From contig NW_026262668.1 of NCBI RefSeq assembly GCF_021869535.1, forward strand, positions 74,028,001 through 74,092,000: a stretch of DNA of 64,000 bases, written 5' to 3'. Source of the DNA: Mytilus californianus (taxonomy: Eukaryota). How positions within the stretch are numbered: position 1 is the first letter of the stretch; each line of letters begins with the position of its first letter. Below, in pieces: positions 30,001-63,000 of this stretch. A program made the position numbers.

Positions 30001-33000
30001 AAAACGACTCAAATCCACAATACATAGGTTTTACAGTCACAATAACGAATCCGTTGATCCTTACGATATGCCTTTGTCTCAACTCACTAGCAACAACTTT
30101 TCGCAGTCCTAGATCTTCAGATACCAGAATAACGTCTTAACATTTTGACTGGGTGTAGATGACGGGTGCAGTGGGTCCAGGGAATCTCCACAAGAGAAAG
30201 AAATAGAACATTAATATAATGGAATATGTATACAGCTCTCCCACCAGCAAAAAACCCTTATTGTAAAATATAAGGGCATACACTACAGGCACTTTATTTG
30301 TACTTTATCGAGAAAGTGTACACTATATACGGTATGTACTATCAACTACAAAAACTACCATTCTTTTCTATTCGTTTATTTTGAAATACCCGATATTTTA
30401 TTTTATTTTAAACTCTTGAATATGATAAGTTTAAATGACAACAAAGGAGAGTATTTATTTTACGTAGTTGGGATTATTTTTATCTGATGAAATTTATTCA
30501 CTCTTTCTCTCAGGGAATATTAATGACAAAAAAGGAAGTCTACTAAAAAAAATGATGAATATGAAGACATGTAAATATATTTTGTCATTTTCACTATCCA
30601 ATTTGCCTTCTGTTGTAATCATATTTGAATTTCTTAGATTCGCATTTTTTAAATTCGCACTAATGATAGTTCGATCTAAATGAGTATAAGATCTTTTCTG
30701 AAAAATCCGTTTACCAATCATTGACTTTTGGTTTTGTTTAGGTTTTCGCACTCCAGTGTATAAACTGATAACTATATATCAATAAACTATATATTTCACT
30801 CTAACGTACAATTACAATAAGTAAGAGGATAGATAATGAATTGATATATAGATTACTTCTGGTCGTTATTTTTCAGACAAAGATATCGTTCTTTTGTCGA
30901 TTCATGTGAAAACTACATGCTAAAGCTATTTCAAAAGACGAAATGGTAGGGCTAAACAGTTAATGCAACATTTTAGCATTAGACGACTGTGCATGCGGGC
31001 CTTCCATACCTCTTGGTTTTGTTTTTTTCCAAGCCTTTAATTCGTGGTTTGGTATACAGCCACTTATGCCAACAATAATGAGGGAACTCAAACGTTCAAA
31101 CAGAGATGTTGCGAACTCAGGTATAGCTAGCATAGCTGCTACCATTGGTTTATGTATCATTTTTGAAAATGAAAAATAGGTAGTAAATTTTCAATTGGCA
31201 AAACCCTCTTCAATCACAATATAGGATATATAATTATGACAAATGTAAATAGAATTATCGATACAAAAAAAAAGAAAAAAAGAACAATAAGCATTACCCT
31301 TACAGCATAGCAAGCTATAAAAGCCCCGACATAACAAGTGTAAAACAATTTAAACGAGAAAACTAACGGCCTGATTTGTGTACAAATGTATCTTACTTGT
31401 TACCGATGTCCGTTTGTTTGGTGTAAATTTTATGAGTTCTCCTATGCTGCTCGCAAAGAAAAGCATCTTTCATCATTCAAGTTGTTTCATGTTTTAACAT
31501 TCTATTAGTTTGATAAATATATGTAGAGGCGGGTTGAAGCGACGAGAAAAAAAAAATGTGCGATTTTGCATATTTTGTCAGTTTCAATTCTTAAAAGTGA
31601 TATTTGTCTGACAAAACGGTATTAACTCAGATTTATTTTGGTCAAAACTATATGTTTTACTACTGATCGTTGTTCTCTTTCTAACATGTACCTAAATAGA
31701 TAAAATGAAGAATGGAAAATTTGACGCCTTTTTATACTGTTGATTCATTTATCTTCGTGGGTATCAATTTTCATGGATAGAGAGAAAAAAAAAAGACATT
31801 TCGAAGGATACGGAAATTTGTGGACCGCTGTTTCAAAAAAAAAAAAAAAAAGTTTCAAATACGTAAATTTGTGGATCTCTGTTTGAATAATAATAAACAA
31901 AAGTTAGAAATTCATTGAAAGTGTTATGAATTGTCAAAATCCTCGATTGGACATTCTAGGATAAAGTGTTCTTTTTAAAACTCCGATTACAAGGGTGGAC
32001 AAAGGCTACTAATTATTTCTTTATTTTACAATGTAAAATTTCTTGTCGGAATTTTATAAGGTATTTTAAGCCCTTTGATGTGCAACTGATTGAAAGTTGT
32101 TTTCCCTAATCACGACATAAAACGTGGTCATTAGAAAACTATCAAATTAAGAAACAGCCGAATGATGTTTGCAGCCCAAGCTGGAACCCAAGTCATAAAA
32201 CAATGATACAATTTACTCATCTCGCGGTTATGTTATATATACTCATTGGAACATGTAAACGGCTGTTTTTATTATAAATTTTTAAGTTACATGTCGGATA
32301 TAGTTACTTCACTTGTAATATTGATGAACGATTTTGAAATTAAAATTTTATCTGTATTATGTATGATATGTACCGTTAAATGTCTCCCAAGGATTATAAT
32401 CGAATGGGTTACAAGTGTACATCACGTTGGGTTAATGTGTAAGTAAATTATAATTCTGATAAAATGTTGTCTTTTGTCCAGATAAAAAAAAAAACATGCT
32501 TGAATGACAATAAAGCGAATTATTGTATGAAAAGCAATTTGTGTCCTCCCATCTCCTTGTTTTAACATTTTGGTTGAGTAAAATTTTATTTCGAAAAATG
32601 TCGTTTTTGTCCCGAATAAACAAAAATACATGCTTAAACGAAAATAAATCGGAATATTATTTTAAAAGCAATTTGTGTCCTCCATTCTCCTTTTAATATT
32701 TTGTTACGAAAACATGTCGTTTTCTCCAGAACTATTAAAATTAAAGTAAACAAAAATGTTTCAACGTTAATTTATCGAAATTTTATTTGAAAAGCAATGT
32801 GTATCCTACTTGAACTACCTAATTAAAAGTTTATTGATAAAAAAAATTGAGGTCAAAGGCGTGAAAATAAATGTTCCTGTCATAAAAAATATGACCTACA
32901 GGCAATATCCCGTACTTAATCCTATTGATATTGAATCACCAATAAACCAATTATGTCACGGTAATTGGGCACAGATGCGCAATTCATTTCAGGTATGCGG

Positions 33001-60000: not shown

Positions 60001-63000
60001 TTTTATAATAATCAGCAAAAAAATGTGTTCGTCATGATAGCAAATTCAGGGTAAAGCAAGAAAATTTGACGTCATAAGTGAATTTTGACCGATCAAAAAC
60101 TGAGATCAAACGAACCAACATTGATTTAATATAGATTCTACCACTGCATCGAGTGTGATACGATATTTTGCAACTCGAGACAGTTAAATCTTCAAATTTA
60201 AAGTTTGAAAAACCTAGCTCTCCTTGATTTATGGAAATAACATATCAAGAAAATTTACATGCAATAGTTTGAATTTTGATTAATTGATTGATTGATATTT
60301 CTATACCGGCATCTCAACCTATTATAAGTATATTATGTCCAACTAAGTTCAGAAACCTTCTAACTAAGTGAACGTACTGGCAACAAAAAAAAGTTTTTGT
60401 TAATAAGGGAAAGATCCTAATTGTCTTGGACTCTTGTTGAAGACGTCCAAGTAATACAGATATAAACATGGCTATAATCATTTATTTTCAAATCTACAGA
60501 TTTATTTTTGTCCAATGCTCAACTTTTATTAAAAAATCATCTAAATCACATCGTATTTTGATAACCTAAAATAGTATAATCAGAAAAAAACTATTTTCCT
60601 GTCAACGTTAATTATACCTTACTTGACACTGTAATTGAGATCCAACTTTGTACGAGTAATTTACCCTATGAGGGACATAGAATTTCATTGACAATGTAGA
60701 ATTTGCGGAAAGAGTTAATTTATCTGTTCGTAATCGTGCATTAGCAACCTTTAGGTTTTTATCACATCTTTAAATAACATTTATCTTTTGTTAAACTTTG
60801 GAGTGGAAATTGCGACGATTACAGTTTTAAACGTGTATCTTCTATATACGTTTAAAATTGAAGGATGCAATGAAACCAAGACTGAAGTTAAAATTAGCAA
60901 TGGAGTCAGCAATGGAGTCAGCAATGCAAGCCAGATTGACACATTTGATAGAAATGAGGGAGTGATGCTGATAATTCTCAGCCAGATTACATCAATTCCA
61001 TCGGCCATTGTCACATTAATCATGTGTAGTGTGCTTGTACAAGCTTCCGAAGGAACAACATATTCTCTTGTTCCCTATGTTAACAAGCAAAGCCTAGCGG
61101 TAATTACTGGACTGGTTGGTGCTGGAGCCAACACTGGTGTCATTATATATGAGCTTGTTTTGCTATATGATATAAAACAAAATTGACGAAAAAAGGTCAT
61201 TTACATAAAATCGTAAAATGCAAAAAATACATTTTGCAAATAAAACATTTGACATAAAAGTTCATAATTGATATGAAATTATAATACATAATTGATACGA
61301 AATTACATCAAGTAAAATCATATTTTTTGATAATTTTTATTTATTCTTATATGTACTTTGACAAATGAAGATAAAATGAATGCATTCGACATATATAATT
61401 TATATACGTGTATTATTTGCGTTGCAACAAATACAGTCACAAAATGTTTATATAGAAAAGAAAGAGAAAATATTTTTTTTTTGCAGTTTTGAAACGAATT
61501 TCACTAGTGGAGTAGGAACTTCTGACTTATCTCGGACACCTGAGTTCAATCGCGATTTTTTGTGAGGTTTTTGTTTCTCAATCTATGTGTGTTGTGGTAT
61601 TATTTTTAAGGTAACCGTTGTGTTGCAGTCAATCAGAATTACATGCCCTTTTCAGACGTAATTTCCTTGTAGAAATTTGTGCCAGATATAAAATTATCAT
61701 TCATTGTGTTACCAAGCCTGTATATGTGGTGTTCAATGCGCAAATTAACGTGATCGACATAGAGCATAGTATTTTGCTCAAATCTGTGCTAGAAGTCGTC
61801 TTTAACTTGCCGTGAGGTGATAATTGTTGCTCAATGTTTAAGTGCACATTGTTTTTAAATATACAAATATTGGTGCTGACGTTAAAATTAGATAGAAATC
61901 ATATAACTAGACAGAAAATACGAAAAATAAGTAAAATACCATTATTAAAAAATATTTTTCCACTGTGACTTGACCTATTTATTACATACCTATTCTAGTA
62001 AGTGTATAAGTATAAATCAGGACGTTAGTTGCCTCGTTTTAATTGTTATTTCTTTTATAGCTTATCATGCGGTATGGGATTTGCTCATTGTTGAAGGCTG
62101 TACAGTGACCTTTTGTTGTTTACTTCTATGTAATTTTGTTTCTGATGGAGAGTTGTCTCATTGGCAATCATATCACATTTTCTTATTTTTATATAACGTC
62201 ATTATTGATATCTCGTTCTTTTTTTTTATAAATAATTAAACTTTCTCTAGGTTCACAATACAATTGTAAGTGATGTTTTCAAACTTAATTAATTTTTTTT
62301 AAATTTCCACATTGTCCATTTGTCTATATTGCCGAATATTATTTCCTTTCTAGGGCCGTCGTATTAAGCGAGGTTCATATTCTCTATTGTAAAACCAATT
62401 CATTTGTCAATTGTACTTTTGCGAATATAGTTTTTATTTCAGTTATTAATGGTTACATCTTTTTACAGTTCTAAAACAGATGAGTTTGTGTTTCAAGGTA
62501 CTGTTTGCAGACATAGCAGTTACCTTGAACCAAGGAATGCTCAAACTGATGTAGTCAAGATTCGGTGTAAATAATATTATGTATGGACGTCAATTGGAAT
62601 TCACACATTATAATTTGTATATCAAGATTTCTTAAATTACCCTCAAACCGAGTTCCAGACAATACTTAGAGCAAAATCAGTTTCCTTTTTTAAATGTGCC
62701 TTCGGTATGGTATTTTGATTAAGTGCTTGTTGAATATCTTTCGGTTTTAATTTTAGGTTATGTTATCGTAATACCTGAAATTATGTACAGATCTTATTTG
62801 TTTAATGTAATTGAAAAATTGACCTGCTAATTCGTTAAAATGTTAATACCCCCTTAGTACATCTATATATATTTTAGGTATTACAAAAAATTCTAGTTTT
62901 CAGTATTGTTTTCTTCGTACAAGGTGTATATTTTTTTCTTATTTACCTAGATGTAGGTAATATAATATGTGACAAGAGATTTATTAGGCTGTCAGATTTT

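What the first reader, a model, noticed from the sequence alone, without database searches (positions are those of the whole stretch)
30877..61148. A dismembered, head-to-head inverted paralog of NRT2 spread over ~30 kb
Seen: plus-strand homologs of the first coding exon (30.9, 41.1 kb) and last exon (54.7, 60.8 kb) lie in gene order. Adjacent intron and 3'-flank sequence is also conserved in inverted orientation (e.g. 60390-60740 vs 17160-17540; 55380-55760 vs 15340-15730). I could not find the middle DDCPQG exon on the plus strand. Inference: DNA-level (not retroposed) inverted duplication of the whole gene, followed by pseudogenisation, intron inflation by TEs and local re-duplication of each half. 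This is a birth-and-death array of a gene unexpected in animals, which suggests the locus has been dosage-labile.
Basis: partly seen in the sequence, partly recalled or inferred. Interest (0 to 1): 0.65.

Follow-up and report, generated by a model that had tools for sequence, protein, structure and literature searches.

The report
Dead inverted copy of mussel NRT2
Beside an intact nitrate-transporter (NRT2) gene in a mussel genome lies a back-to-front extra copy that is broken, split apart by inserted DNA and partly re-copied; it is an ordinary dead duplicate rather than a working gene.

Summary
The minus strand carries an intact three-exon NRT2/NNP transporter gene (CDS 20230-15843, GT-AG introns, 522 codons). 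Its nearest named proteins are Mytilus NRT proteins. A 5.4-kb segment holding this gene (about 14960-20384) is present once more in inverted, head-to-head orientation. Exons, introns and flanks lie in gene order, so the copy arose at DNA level and was not retroposed. The copy is dead: 5 in-frame stops and 2 frameshifts in exon 1, exon 2 deleted, exon 3 truncated at both ends and internally deleted, and both invariant arginines lost. Its intron 1 is split within 3 bp of one point (41899 | 58804) by 16.9 kb. That block holds a polymerase-B mobile-element fragment, dispersed repeats and a second copy of the 3' half. The 5' half was tandemly duplicated (K about 0.04) and the 3' half was copied non-adjacently (K about 0.06). 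Both events are much younger than the inverted duplication (non-coding K 0.24-0.39). NRT2 in bivalves, with variable copy number, is already in print (2025 preprint). The verdict is an ordinary unprocessed pseudogene of low interest. The two young re-duplications could be haplotype assembly artefacts.

The parts
15843..20230 (-). Intact NRT2/NNP nitrate-transporter gene (called REF here). Coding exons are 20230-19591, 18949-18848 and 16669-15843 (stop included), 1569 nt in total.
   Evidence: GT-AG at all four junctions and phases consistent. Named Mytilus proteins cover all three exons. Pfam MFS_1 E 2e-18. NCBIfam TIGR00886 NarK family E 8e-56 for exon 1 and 9e-24 for exon 3. REF keeps 44 of 44 (exon 1) and 23 of 24 (exon 3) positions that are >=95% conserved in 120 homologs.
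14960..20384 (-). Extent of the segment that exists a second time in inverted orientation: the gene, 154 bp upstream of the ATG and about 0.9 kb of 3' flank.
   Evidence: Outermost collinear matches. Homology stops at REF 20384 (= 40961 / 30743) and at about REF 14960 (= about 61800 / 56087).
40961..41899 (+). 5' part of the dead copy (in unit A2): upstream DNA, pseudo-exon 1 (41116-41755) and the first 144 bp of intron 1.
   Evidence: 84% identity over 940 bp, and exon 1 at 89.5% nt identity. Lesions: a 1-bp deletion near 41173, a 1-bp insertion near 41259, and stops at REF codons 9, 17, 104, 149 and 211. ATG and GT donor are kept. Invariant Arg to Cys, and three signature-1 glycines replaced.
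30743..31258 (+). Second, truncated copy of the 5' part (in unit A1): pseudo-exon 1 up to REF codon 94, then a 410-bp deletion relative to A2 (41396-41805).
   Evidence: It shares the codon-9 stop and both frameshifts with A2. ATG has become ATA at 30883-30885.
26738..45920 (+). Head-to-tail tandem duplication A: unit A1 is 26738-35023 and unit A2 is 35024-45920. Each unit starts with a 113-bp satellite.
   Evidence: Six collinear blocks with K2P 0.030-0.057. The junction was read. Satellite. A2-only pieces: 37795-39445 and a 231-bp palindrome at 44567-44797.
41900..58803 (+). 16.9-kb block that splits intron 1 of the dead copy. It contains the rest of unit A2, 8.5 kb of mostly unassigned DNA, unit B1 and 0.6 kb more.
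   Evidence: The left piece ends at REF 19465 and the right piece starts at REF 19468.
49175..50942 (+). Decayed fragment of a mobile-element gene: an Endonuclease-VII-like domain plus a protein-primed family-B DNA polymerase, with a frame break near 49620-49633.
   Evidence: 7938 of 8000 scored candidates have E<=1e-3, many carrying PF03175; atlas clusters carry PF02945 and PF03175; tblastn of 10 hits covers 49124-50942. Endonuclease_7 at E 2e-4, below the Pfam cut-off.
54457..58205 (+). Unit B1, a secondary copy of the 3' half: end of intron 2 (54504-54695), pseudo-exon 3 (54709-55123), 3' flank (55378-56087) and 2.1 kb of downstream DNA.
   Evidence: It lacks REF 16394-16382 (13 bp) and 16341-16250 (92 bp). 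DNA to its left is unrelated to intron 2.
58804..60133 (+). Continuation of intron 1 of the dead copy. 58804-59148 matches REF 19468-19126. A REF segment (about 19042-19171) is present in three copies (59300-59363, 59691-59800, 60042-60133).
   Evidence: (E 2e-37, 3e-07, 1e-16, 1e-14).
60133..60200 (+). Site of the deletion that removed exon 2. About 67 bp stand for REF 19070-17740.
60200..61800 (+). Original 3' part of the dead copy: intron 2 (60200-60783), pseudo-exon 3 (60797-61148) and 3' flank (61325-61800).
   Evidence: It lacks REF 17115-16557, which in REF spans a 272-bp repeat copy, the acceptor site and the first 113 nt of exon 3. It lacks REF 16398-16231 (168 bp). After REF 16037 the last ~190 nt of CDS are replaced by unrelated DNA.
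60547..63910 (+). Unit B2, the partner of B1. It is continuous on its left with intron 2 of the dead copy.
   Evidence: Blocks with K2P 0.039, 0.088 and 0.063. The sequences after 58205 and after 63910 differ.
51462..51959 (+). One copy of a ~500-bp dispersed repeat. Other copies are at 57494-58002, 63210-63708 and, inverted, in intron 2 of the intact gene (16747-17018).
   Evidence: 85% identity between the plus-strand copies, 66-68% to the intron copy.

Best explanation
This is a single unprocessed (DNA-duplicated) pseudogene of the neighbouring NRT2 gene, in a Mytilus-type mussel genome.

Proposed history:
1. A 5.4-kb segment was copied in inverted orientation about 10 kb from the head of the parent gene. 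It carried all three coding exons, both introns, 154 bp upstream and 0.9 kb downstream.
2. The copy drifted without constraint, either from the start or soon after. It collected stops, frameshifts and deletions and lost the residues that nitrate transport needs.
3. Its intron 1 was broken at one point by DNA that now measures 16.9 kb. This block includes a mobile-element fragment and a duplicate of the copy's own 3' half.
4. Last, an 8-11-kb unit holding the 5' half was duplicated in tandem.

What is shown: the anatomy, the lesions and the relative order of events. What is inferred: the absence of function, the mechanisms of duplication, and that the re-duplications are real rather than assembly products. 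The pieces most likely do nothing. The working gene is the minus-strand one.
For: Collinearity:
- Upstream, exon 1, intron 1a, intron 1b, intron 2, exon 3 and 3' flank all match the parent in inverted orientation and in gene order.
- The intron matches are single-locus, unlike the TE-like stretches, which hit five or more places.

One copy, not two:
- The 5' piece ends at REF 19465 and the 3' piece starts at REF 19468.
- The two halves are equally distant from the parent. Exon 1 gives dS 0.181 (se 0.039) and dN 0.084. Exon 3 gives dS 0.208-0.234 and dN 0.084-0.092.
- Non-coding K is 0.24-0.27 on the 5' side and 0.26-0.28 in the 3' flank.
- Both halves fall in the same six-row Mytilus clade (100/99* and 100/100*).

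Dead:
- 5 stops and 2 frameshifts in pseudo-exon 1.
- Exon 2 is absent.
- Exon 3 lacks its first 113 nt and last ~190 nt and has internal deletions of 13+92 bp or 168 bp.
- 9 of 44 highly conserved exon-1 positions are changed. These include the Arg invariant in 120 of 120 homologs (to Cys) and three signature-motif glycines.
- The Arg of exon 3 that is invariant in 120 of 120 homologs is deleted in both copies.

Relaxed constraint on the copy:
- Amino-acid changes polarised with M. galloprovincialis P0001 are 30 on the copy vs 5 on the parent (1 ambiguous) in exon 1, and 17 vs 5 and 16 vs 4 in exon 3.
- Pairwise dN/dS is 0.42-0.47, about 1 SE (my estimate) below the ~0.58 expected if the copy was neutral throughout.
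- Mismatches are spread over all codon positions.

Order of events:
- The codon-9 stop and both frameshifts are shared by A1 and A2.
- The 555-bp gap (with the same 11-bp filler) and the C-terminal replacement are shared by B1 and B2.
- So death preceded both re-duplications.
- K is 0.24-0.39 for the inverted duplication, 0.039-0.088 for B and 0.030-0.057 for A.
Against: - Synonymous divergence in the exons (0.19-0.20, se 0.03) is somewhat lower than non-coding divergence (0.24-0.39). I found no conversion tracts to explain this (permutation p 0.34, 0.62, 0.93). It may come from poor alignment of AT-rich introns, but it is not settled.
- The copy is not sister to the adjacent parent in the trees. 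In exon 1 the parent pairs with M. coruscus (98/92*) and then M. edulis (83/83), while the copy sits with M. galloprovincialis (78/71). A local origin from this very parent is therefore not proven by phylogeny. However, the AU test does not reject parent + M. coruscus + copy as one clade (p 0.10).
- No transcript, read-depth or population data were available, so 'no function' and 'real duplications' are untested.
- 79 of the 82 ORFs scanned against Pfam have no match, and much of the 16.9 kb that splits intron 1 has no assigned origin.
Confidence: 0.85

Rival explanations
1. The inverted pseudogene is real, but the two young re-duplications (A1/A2 and B1/B2) are haplotypic duplications. Under this reading, two alleles of a very heterozygous, indel-rich region were laid one after the other by the assembler.
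For: The copies differ by only K 0.03-0.09 plus large indels. M. coruscus has 1.64% genome-wide heterozygosity (PMC7227121, passages). Its assemblies are reported to carry many haplotypic duplications (PMC10548655, passages).
Against: There is no N or gap in the window. The A1|A2 junction is a clean head-to-tail join. B1 is separated from B2 by 2.3 kb of unique DNA and has an unrelated left flank, which a simple allele-after-allele join does not give. Divergence of 4-6% is above the genome-wide heterozygosity.
Confidence: 0.2
2. The 5' and 3' pieces come from two or more separate duplication events (several partial copies) rather than from one copy that was later split.
For: Each half is present twice, and the halves are 13-17 kb apart. 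B1 shows that partial copies can be made at this locus.
Against: The break points complement each other to within 3 bp (REF 19465 / 19468). Distances to the parent are equal for both halves. The tree position is the same for both halves.
Confidence: 0.08
3. The plus-strand pieces are functional. They might be transcribed into an RNA that pairs with NRT2 mRNA and yields small RNAs, or they might encode a truncated protein.
For: About 640 nt and 350-415 nt of 88-91% identity to the parent's exons lie in inverted orientation within 45 kb. A2 keeps its ATG and splice donor.
Against: The copy's own sense transcript would be sense, not antisense, to NRT2. A hairpin would need read-through across more than 20 kb. 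The stops begin at codon 9. The copies evolve as neutral DNA: dN/dS is 0.67 for B1 vs B2 and 1.67 for A1 vs A2, on few changes. No Rfam family is found. Nothing here measures RNA.
Confidence: 0.04
4. The copy is a retroposed (processed) pseudogene.
For: None found.
Against: Intron 1, intron 2, upstream DNA and 3' flank are all copied. The splice donor of exon 1 is retained in place.
Confidence: 0.01

Closest known systems
Unprocessed (duplicated) pseudogene next to its parent gene
   Same: It was copied as DNA with introns and flanks. It carries disabling stops, frameshifts and deletions. Its substitution pattern is neutral. Later insertions and local duplications lie inside it.
   Different: Nothing essential differs. 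The particulars are the inverted head-to-head placement and the clean split of intron 1 by 16.9 kb that contains a copy of the pseudogene's own 3' half.
Animal NRT2 genes of bivalves (e.g. TriNRT2.1 and TriNRT2.2 of Tridacna crocea; bioRxiv 10.1101/2025.11.20.689417)
   Same: The intact minus-strand gene is of this kind: NNP-family MFS transporter, signature motifs, two conserved arginines, nearest relatives in bivalves. The preprint reports copy numbers of 0-5 and repeated duplication and loss, of which this locus is an example.
   Different: The preprint's passages that I read name Bathymodiolus among mussels but not Mytilus. They do not describe pseudogenes or this locus. Its supplements could not be opened.
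Inverted segmental duplications made by replication template switching (fold-back type)
   Same: Two copies lie in opposite orientation, a few kb long, separated by a spacer of about 10 kb.
   Different: The mechanism is not testable here. The outer junctions show no informative microhomology after K of about 0.3 divergence.
Pseudogene-derived endogenous small-RNA loci (mouse oocyte endo-siRNAs; recalled, not looked up)
   Same: An inverted copy of exon sequence lies near the parent gene.
   Different: There is no evidence of transcription. The geometry does not give antisense RNA without very long read-through.

Membership tests
NRT2 / nitrate-nitrite porter (NNP) family of MFS transporters: the intact minus-strand gene | MFS fold and NNP-family profile match | tested here: met
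   Pfam MFS_1 E 2e-18 on exon 1. NCBIfam TIGR00886 NarK family E 8e-56 (exon 1) and 9e-24 (exon 3). Each exon alone scores below the whole-protein cut-off of 311.7 bits because exons were scanned separately. 668 homologs at E<=1e-3, many named nitrate/nitrite transporter.
NRT2 / nitrate-nitrite porter (NNP) family of MFS transporters: the intact minus-strand gene | Nitrate signature motif 1 in TM5 (A-G-W/L-G-N-M-G; PMC6695921 passage) | tested here: met
   REF reads G-G-W-G-N-L-G at exon-1 positions 167-173. These columns are 114-120 of 120 conserved.
NRT2 / nitrate-nitrite porter (NNP) family of MFS transporters: the intact minus-strand gene | Nitrate signature motif 2 in TM11 | tested here: inconclusive
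   REF reads G-A-G-G-N-T-C. The last position is Gly in 118 of 120 homologs, in the three named Mytilus proteins and in both dead copies, but Cys here. The effect on transport is unknown.
NRT2 / nitrate-nitrite porter (NNP) family of MFS transporters: the intact minus-strand gene | Two perfectly conserved substrate-binding arginines (NrtA R87 in TM2 and R368 in TM8; PMC4635503 passage citing Unkles 2004) | tested here: met
   Arg at exon-1 position 90 and at exon-3 position 117 are both 120 of 120 conserved and both present in REF. That these columns equal R87 and R368 is inferred from their invariance and sequence context. It was not checked by alignment to NrtA itself.
NRT2 / nitrate-nitrite porter (NNP) family of MFS transporters: the intact minus-strand gene | Twelve transmembrane helices; nitrate transport activity | not tested
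   The spliced protein was not assembled, so no whole-protein topology or fold was run. Activity needs an experiment.
NRT2 family: the plus-strand pieces as a working member | Open reading frame with the conserved arginines and signature motifs | tested here: not met
   5 stops and 2 frameshifts. Arg to Cys at position 90. G168R, G170E and G174E in signature 1. The TM8 Arg region is deleted. Exon 2 is absent. Exon 3 is truncated.
Unprocessed pseudogene | Retains introns and flanking DNA of the parent | tested here: met
   (E 1e-17 to 1e-110 for the non-coding blocks).
Unprocessed pseudogene | Disabling lesions and neutral substitution pattern | tested here: met
Unprocessed pseudogene | Not transcribed or translated into a functional product | not testable with these tools
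   No expression data were available.
Processed (retroposed) pseudogene | Intronless copy of the mRNA | tested here: not met
   Both introns are represented.
Polinton/Maverick-like mobile element (for 49175-50942) | Protein-primed family-B DNA polymerase | tested here: met
   Relatives carry PF03175. tblastn coverage is. It is a fragment with a frame break.
Polinton/Maverick-like mobile element (for 49175-50942) | Integrase, capsid and packaging genes; terminal inverted repeats | tested here: not met
   None of the 8 ORFs of at least 75 aa between 48163 and 51062 matches such families. The self-comparison shows no long inverted repeat around it. So this is only a fragment, and the family name is a lead, not a membership.

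The most novel reading that the evidence does not exclude
The dead inverted copy is not inert. Read-through transcription across the locus would give RNA that pairs with NRT2 exon sequence (88-91% identity over 350-640 nt) and yields small RNAs that tune the dose of the intact nitrate transporter. On this reading, the repeated local copying of exactly the exon-bearing pieces (A1/A2, B1/B2) reflects selection for more trigger sequence.
Probability: 0.04. Interest if true: 0.55.

Novelty: new member of a known kind. Interest (0 to 1): 0.22.

Why it matters
The finding adds one worked example, with an order of events, to the duplication-and-loss history already reported for animal NRT2 genes.

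It warns annotators that exon-like NRT2 fragments at this locus are not extra genes. It also warns that apparent copy-number gain in mussel assemblies can be either pseudogene debris or haplotype artefact.

It makes one testable prediction. The tree position suggests the inverted duplication is about as old as the split between Mytilus species. If so, the same inverted copy, alive or dead, should sit beside the NRT gene in M. edulis and M. galloprovincialis.

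Tried and rejected
- Middle exon on the plus strand: tblastn at word size 2, sensitive blastn and Smith-Waterman with shuffles. Nothing found. Rejected as absent by deletion.
- Gene conversion as the cause of higher exon identity: longest-identical-run permutation test, not significant.
- Species-specific recent duplication: the trees do not favour it, but the AU test cannot reject it (p 0.10). 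Left open.
- Solved-structure relatives by sequence for exon 1 and exon 3 alone: 0 hits at the thresholds used. Uninformative.
- tRNA and Rfam scans of the whole window, to look for SINE-like or RNA features: 0 and 0.
- Pfam on 82 of the 84 ORFs of at least 75 aa. The 2 left out are the parent's exons, already scanned. Only 3 ORFs matched, and 2 of those are below the curated cut-offs. So most of the inflating DNA could not be assigned to TE families.
- Literature search 'Mytilus' + 'nitrate transporter': 6 papers, 5 listed, none about a mussel NRT2 judging from titles and abstract starts.
- Not attempted: synteny in other Mytilus genomes, transcription and read depth. The only open contig collection holds bacteria and archaea.
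- Not attempted: any search, fold or tree on the joined (spliced) model. Everything was done exon by exon, and for dN/dS only the counts were added.

Full report
**What the window is.** It has no N and 32% G+C. The best named relatives of its transporter gene are Mytilus proteins. M. coruscus NRT is 100% identical over the 150 residues of exon 1 that its model covers. M. edulis is 97% identical and M. galloprovincialis 94%. The published M. coruscus assembly has 32.22% G+C (PMC7227121, passages). I therefore take the window for a Mytilus genome, closest to M. coruscus. It is not human.

**The parent gene.** On the minus strand there is an intact three-exon gene. Exon 1 is 20230-19591 (640 nt), exon 2 is 18949-18848 (102 nt) and exon 3 is 16669-15843 (827 nt with the stop). 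All junctions are GT-AG and both introns are phase 1, giving 522 codons. Six named bivalve proteins align to all three exons.
- Exon 1 matches Pfam MFS_1 (E 2e-18).
- Exons 1 and 3 match the NCBIfam NarK-family model (E 8e-56 and 9e-24).
- Across the 120 best homologs, the gene keeps 44 of 44 exon-1 positions and 23 of 24 exon-3 positions that are at least 95% conserved.
- These include the TM5 nitrate signature (consensus A-G-W/L-G-N-M-G; PMC6695921, passage).
- They also include two arginines that are invariant in 120 of 120. I take these for the essential NrtA R87 and R368 (PMC4635503, passage). The equivalence is inferred.

Every search, alignment to profiles, tree and count was done exon by exon, and no whole-protein fold or topology was run.

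**Check of the observation.**
- Exon-1 homologs lie at 30877-31161 and 41110-41784.
- Exon-3 homologs lie at 54667-55134 and 60797-61159.
- The inverted intron and flank matches have E-values from 1e-43 to 1e-110.
- A more sensitive search adds an intron-1 remnant at 58804-59148 and lengthens the intron-2 match to 60200-60783.
- The middle exon is absent. Its best plus-strand alignment is matched or beaten by 33 of 100 shuffles. The 1330 bp of the parent that contain it (19070-17740) are represented by about 67 bp at 60133-60200.

**Anatomy of the copy.** Homology with the parent runs from REF 20384 to about REF 14960, which is 5.4 kb. That covers 154 bp upstream of the ATG, the whole gene and 0.9 kb of 3' flank. 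In the copy this DNA lies in gene order on the plus strand but in two places.
- The first place is 40961-41899: upstream DNA, pseudo-exon 1 at 41116-41755, and the start of intron 1.
- The second place is 58804-61800: the rest of intron 1, the exon-2 deletion site, intron 2, pseudo-exon 3 at 60797-61148, and the 3' flank.
- The first piece ends at REF 19465 and the second begins at REF 19468. So one break in intron 1 separates them, and the 16.9 kb between (41900-58803) is secondary.

**What fills the 16.9 kb.**
- The remainder of tandem unit A2.
- About 8.5 kb of mostly unassigned DNA.
- A second copy (B1) of the 3' half.
- Another 0.6 kb.

Within the unassigned DNA, 49175-50942 is a decayed fragment of an Endonuclease-VII-like plus protein-primed polymerase-B gene. 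It belongs to a very large invertebrate mobile-element family. A ~500-bp dispersed repeat occurs at 51462-51959. It recurs in B1, in B2 and, inverted, in intron 2 of the parent. Beyond that, Pfam recognised almost nothing: 3 of 82 ORFs matched. 'Inflation by TEs' is therefore only partly shown.

**Why the copy is dead.**
- Pseudo-exon 1 (A2) is 89.5% identical to exon 1. It has a 1-bp deletion, a 1-bp insertion 86 nt later, and stops at codons 9, 17, 104, 149 and 211.
- Nine of the 44 conserved positions are changed. These include the invariant TM2 arginine (now Cys, in both A1 and A2) and three glycines of signature 1.
- Both exon-3 copies lack the parent's 17115-16557, with the same 11-bp filler. 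In the parent this stretch includes a 272-bp repeat copy, the acceptor site and the first 113 nt of exon 3.
- Both exon-3 copies lose homology after REF 16037, so the last ~190 nt of coding sequence are replaced.
- B1 lacks 13 + 92 bp internally and B2 lacks 168 bp. This removes the invariant TM8 arginine and five other invariant positions.

**Substitution pattern.**
- By Nei-Gojobori counts, exon 1 gives dS 0.181 (se 0.039), dN 0.084 and ratio 0.47.
- Exon 3 gives dS 0.21-0.23, dN 0.084-0.092 and ratio 0.36-0.44.
- Summed counts give dS 0.19-0.20 and ratio 0.42-0.46.
- Polarised with M. galloprovincialis P0001, the copy carries 30 changes against 5 on the parent in exon 1 (1 ambiguous). In exon 3 the counts are 17 vs 5 and 16 vs 4 (2 ambiguous each). 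Other outgroup sets give the same direction with more ambiguous sites.
- If the copy had been neutral all along, with the parent about six times slower, the pairwise ratio would be about 0.58. That is roughly one standard error (my estimate from the SEs) above the value seen.

So the copy died early, possibly at birth. A point in favour of 'at birth' is that the parent and both copies have a pyrimidine run and AG six bases before the ATG. This suggests a 5'-UTR intron, with the promoter lying beyond the 154 bp that were copied. That is inference.

**Order of events.**
- The codon-9 stop and both frameshifts are shared by A1 and A2. The 555-bp gap and the C-terminal replacement are shared by B1 and B2. 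So the gene was dead before either re-duplication.
- Substitution-only divergence is 0.24-0.39 between parent and copy in non-coding DNA. It is 0.039-0.088 between B1 and B2 (0.063, se 0.006, over the largest block). It is 0.030-0.057 between A1 and A2 (0.039, se 0.004, over the largest block).
- A is a clean head-to-tail tandem (26738-35023 | 35024-45920). It was followed by a 410-bp deletion and ATG to ATA in A1, and by two insertions in A2.
- B is not head-to-tail. B2 (60547-63910) is continuous with the copy's intron 2. B1 (54457-58205) has an unrelated left flank and lies 2.3 kb upstream of B2, inside the block that splits intron 1. B1 is therefore the secondary copy.
- Because unit A includes 3.8 kb of that block, the split of intron 1 came before duplication A.

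**Age relative to species.** In trees built per exon region, both halves of the copy fall inside one Mytilus clade with the parent and the M. coruscus, M. edulis and M. galloprovincialis proteins (100/99* and 100/100*).
- In exon 1 the parent pairs with M. coruscus (98/92*) and then M. edulis (83/83). The copy groups weakly with M. galloprovincialis (78/71).
- In exon 3 the inner branches are unresolved.
- An AU test does not reject a clade of parent, M. coruscus and the copy (p 0.10).

The duplication is thus roughly as old as the divergence of these species, but which came first is open.

**Comparison with what is known.** The intact gene is a member of the NRT2/NNP family. The plus-strand pieces fail the membership test as a working member and meet the tests for an unprocessed pseudogene. 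NRT2 in animals is already reported. A 2025 preprint on Tridacna crocea finds NRT2 in molluscs, annelids and rotifers, with copy numbers 0-5 and 'repeated gene duplication and loss' in bivalves (10.1101/2025.11.20.689417; I read 12 of 17 passages). The earlier survey that it corrects collapsed Metazoa into one leaf (PMC6400420, 6 passages). Massive presence-absence variation in M. galloprovincialis is known (PMC7653742; search listing and start of abstract only).

**Rivals.** The main one concerns only the young re-duplications. M. coruscus assemblies are reported to hold many haplotypic duplications (PMC10548655, passages), and 3-9% divergence with large indels could be allelic in such DNA. 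Against this are the gap-free sequence, the clean A junction and the non-adjacent layout of B. I put this rival at 0.2. I put lower the ideas of separate origins of the two halves (0.08), a regulatory-RNA or protein function (0.04) and retroposition (0.01).

**One thing unexplained.** Exon synonymous divergence (about 0.19-0.20) is lower than intron and flank divergence (0.24-0.39), and there is no sign of conversion tracts.

**Verdict.** This is an ordinary decaying duplicate of a gene family whose presence in bivalves is already described. Novelty: a new member of a known kind. Interest is low.

Noticed in passing
window 16049-16047 (minus strand, exon 3 of the intact gene): The intact NRT2 has Cys at the last position of the second nitrate-signature motif (G-A-G-G-N-T-C). 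That position is Gly in 118 of 120 homologs, in the three named Mytilus proteins and in both dead copies. The 'working' gene may be an impaired allele.
   Followed up: partly
window 16669-15846 vs 20038-19589 (minus strand): The parent's exon 1 is 100% identical to the M. coruscus NRT model over 150 residues. Exon 3 is only 91% identical (276 residues) and exon 2 is 87% (38 residues), with changes on both sides. This could mean a different haplotype, a different paralog or a close sister taxon.
   Followed up: no
window 20245-20231 (minus), 41101-41115 and 30868-30882 (plus): A pyrimidine run and AG lie 6 nt before the ATG in the parent and in both copies. This suggests a 5'-UTR intron, so the promoter may lie outside the duplicated segment.
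   Followed up: no
window 1999-6614 (minus strand): Long open frames at 2500-4386, 4823-5755 and 5715-6614 sit in a G+C-richer stretch (38-40%) and have no Pfam match. The 629-aa frame has 918 relatives at E<=1e-3, about 900 aa long, in many animal phyla. Some are named Tesmin/TSO1-like CXC domain protein and a few carry PF20231. It looks like a multi-copy transposon gene.
   Followed up: partly
window 8545-8799 (plus strand): An ORF matches Pfam DUF5641 (E 4e-5, just above the cut-off). From memory, that domain sits at the end of retroelement polyproteins. Probably an old retroelement remnant.
   Followed up: no
window 49175-50942 (plus strand): A decayed Endonuclease-VII-like plus protein-primed polymerase-B gene fragment of a very abundant invertebrate mobile-element family. 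No other genes of such an element were seen nearby.
   Followed up: partly
window 25858-27248 and 35188-35534: A 113-114-bp satellite (2.7-3.1 units per array) lies at and just before the start of each A unit. Related degenerate copies extend back to about 23000. It may have mediated the unequal exchange that made the tandem.
   Followed up: no
window 44567-44797: A 231-bp almost perfect palindrome (91% self-complementary) is present in A2 but not in A1. It looks like a MITE-like insertion after the tandem duplication.
   Followed up: no
window 41895-41899 and 58799-58808: The two sides of the intron-1 break end in ATCAA and TTTAA, where the parent has ATTAA once. This could be a short target-site duplication of the first insertion. 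Weak evidence.
   Followed up: no
window 59300-60133: A stretch of the parent's intron 1 (about 19042-19171) is present three times in the dead copy. This is a minisatellite-like expansion.
   Followed up: no
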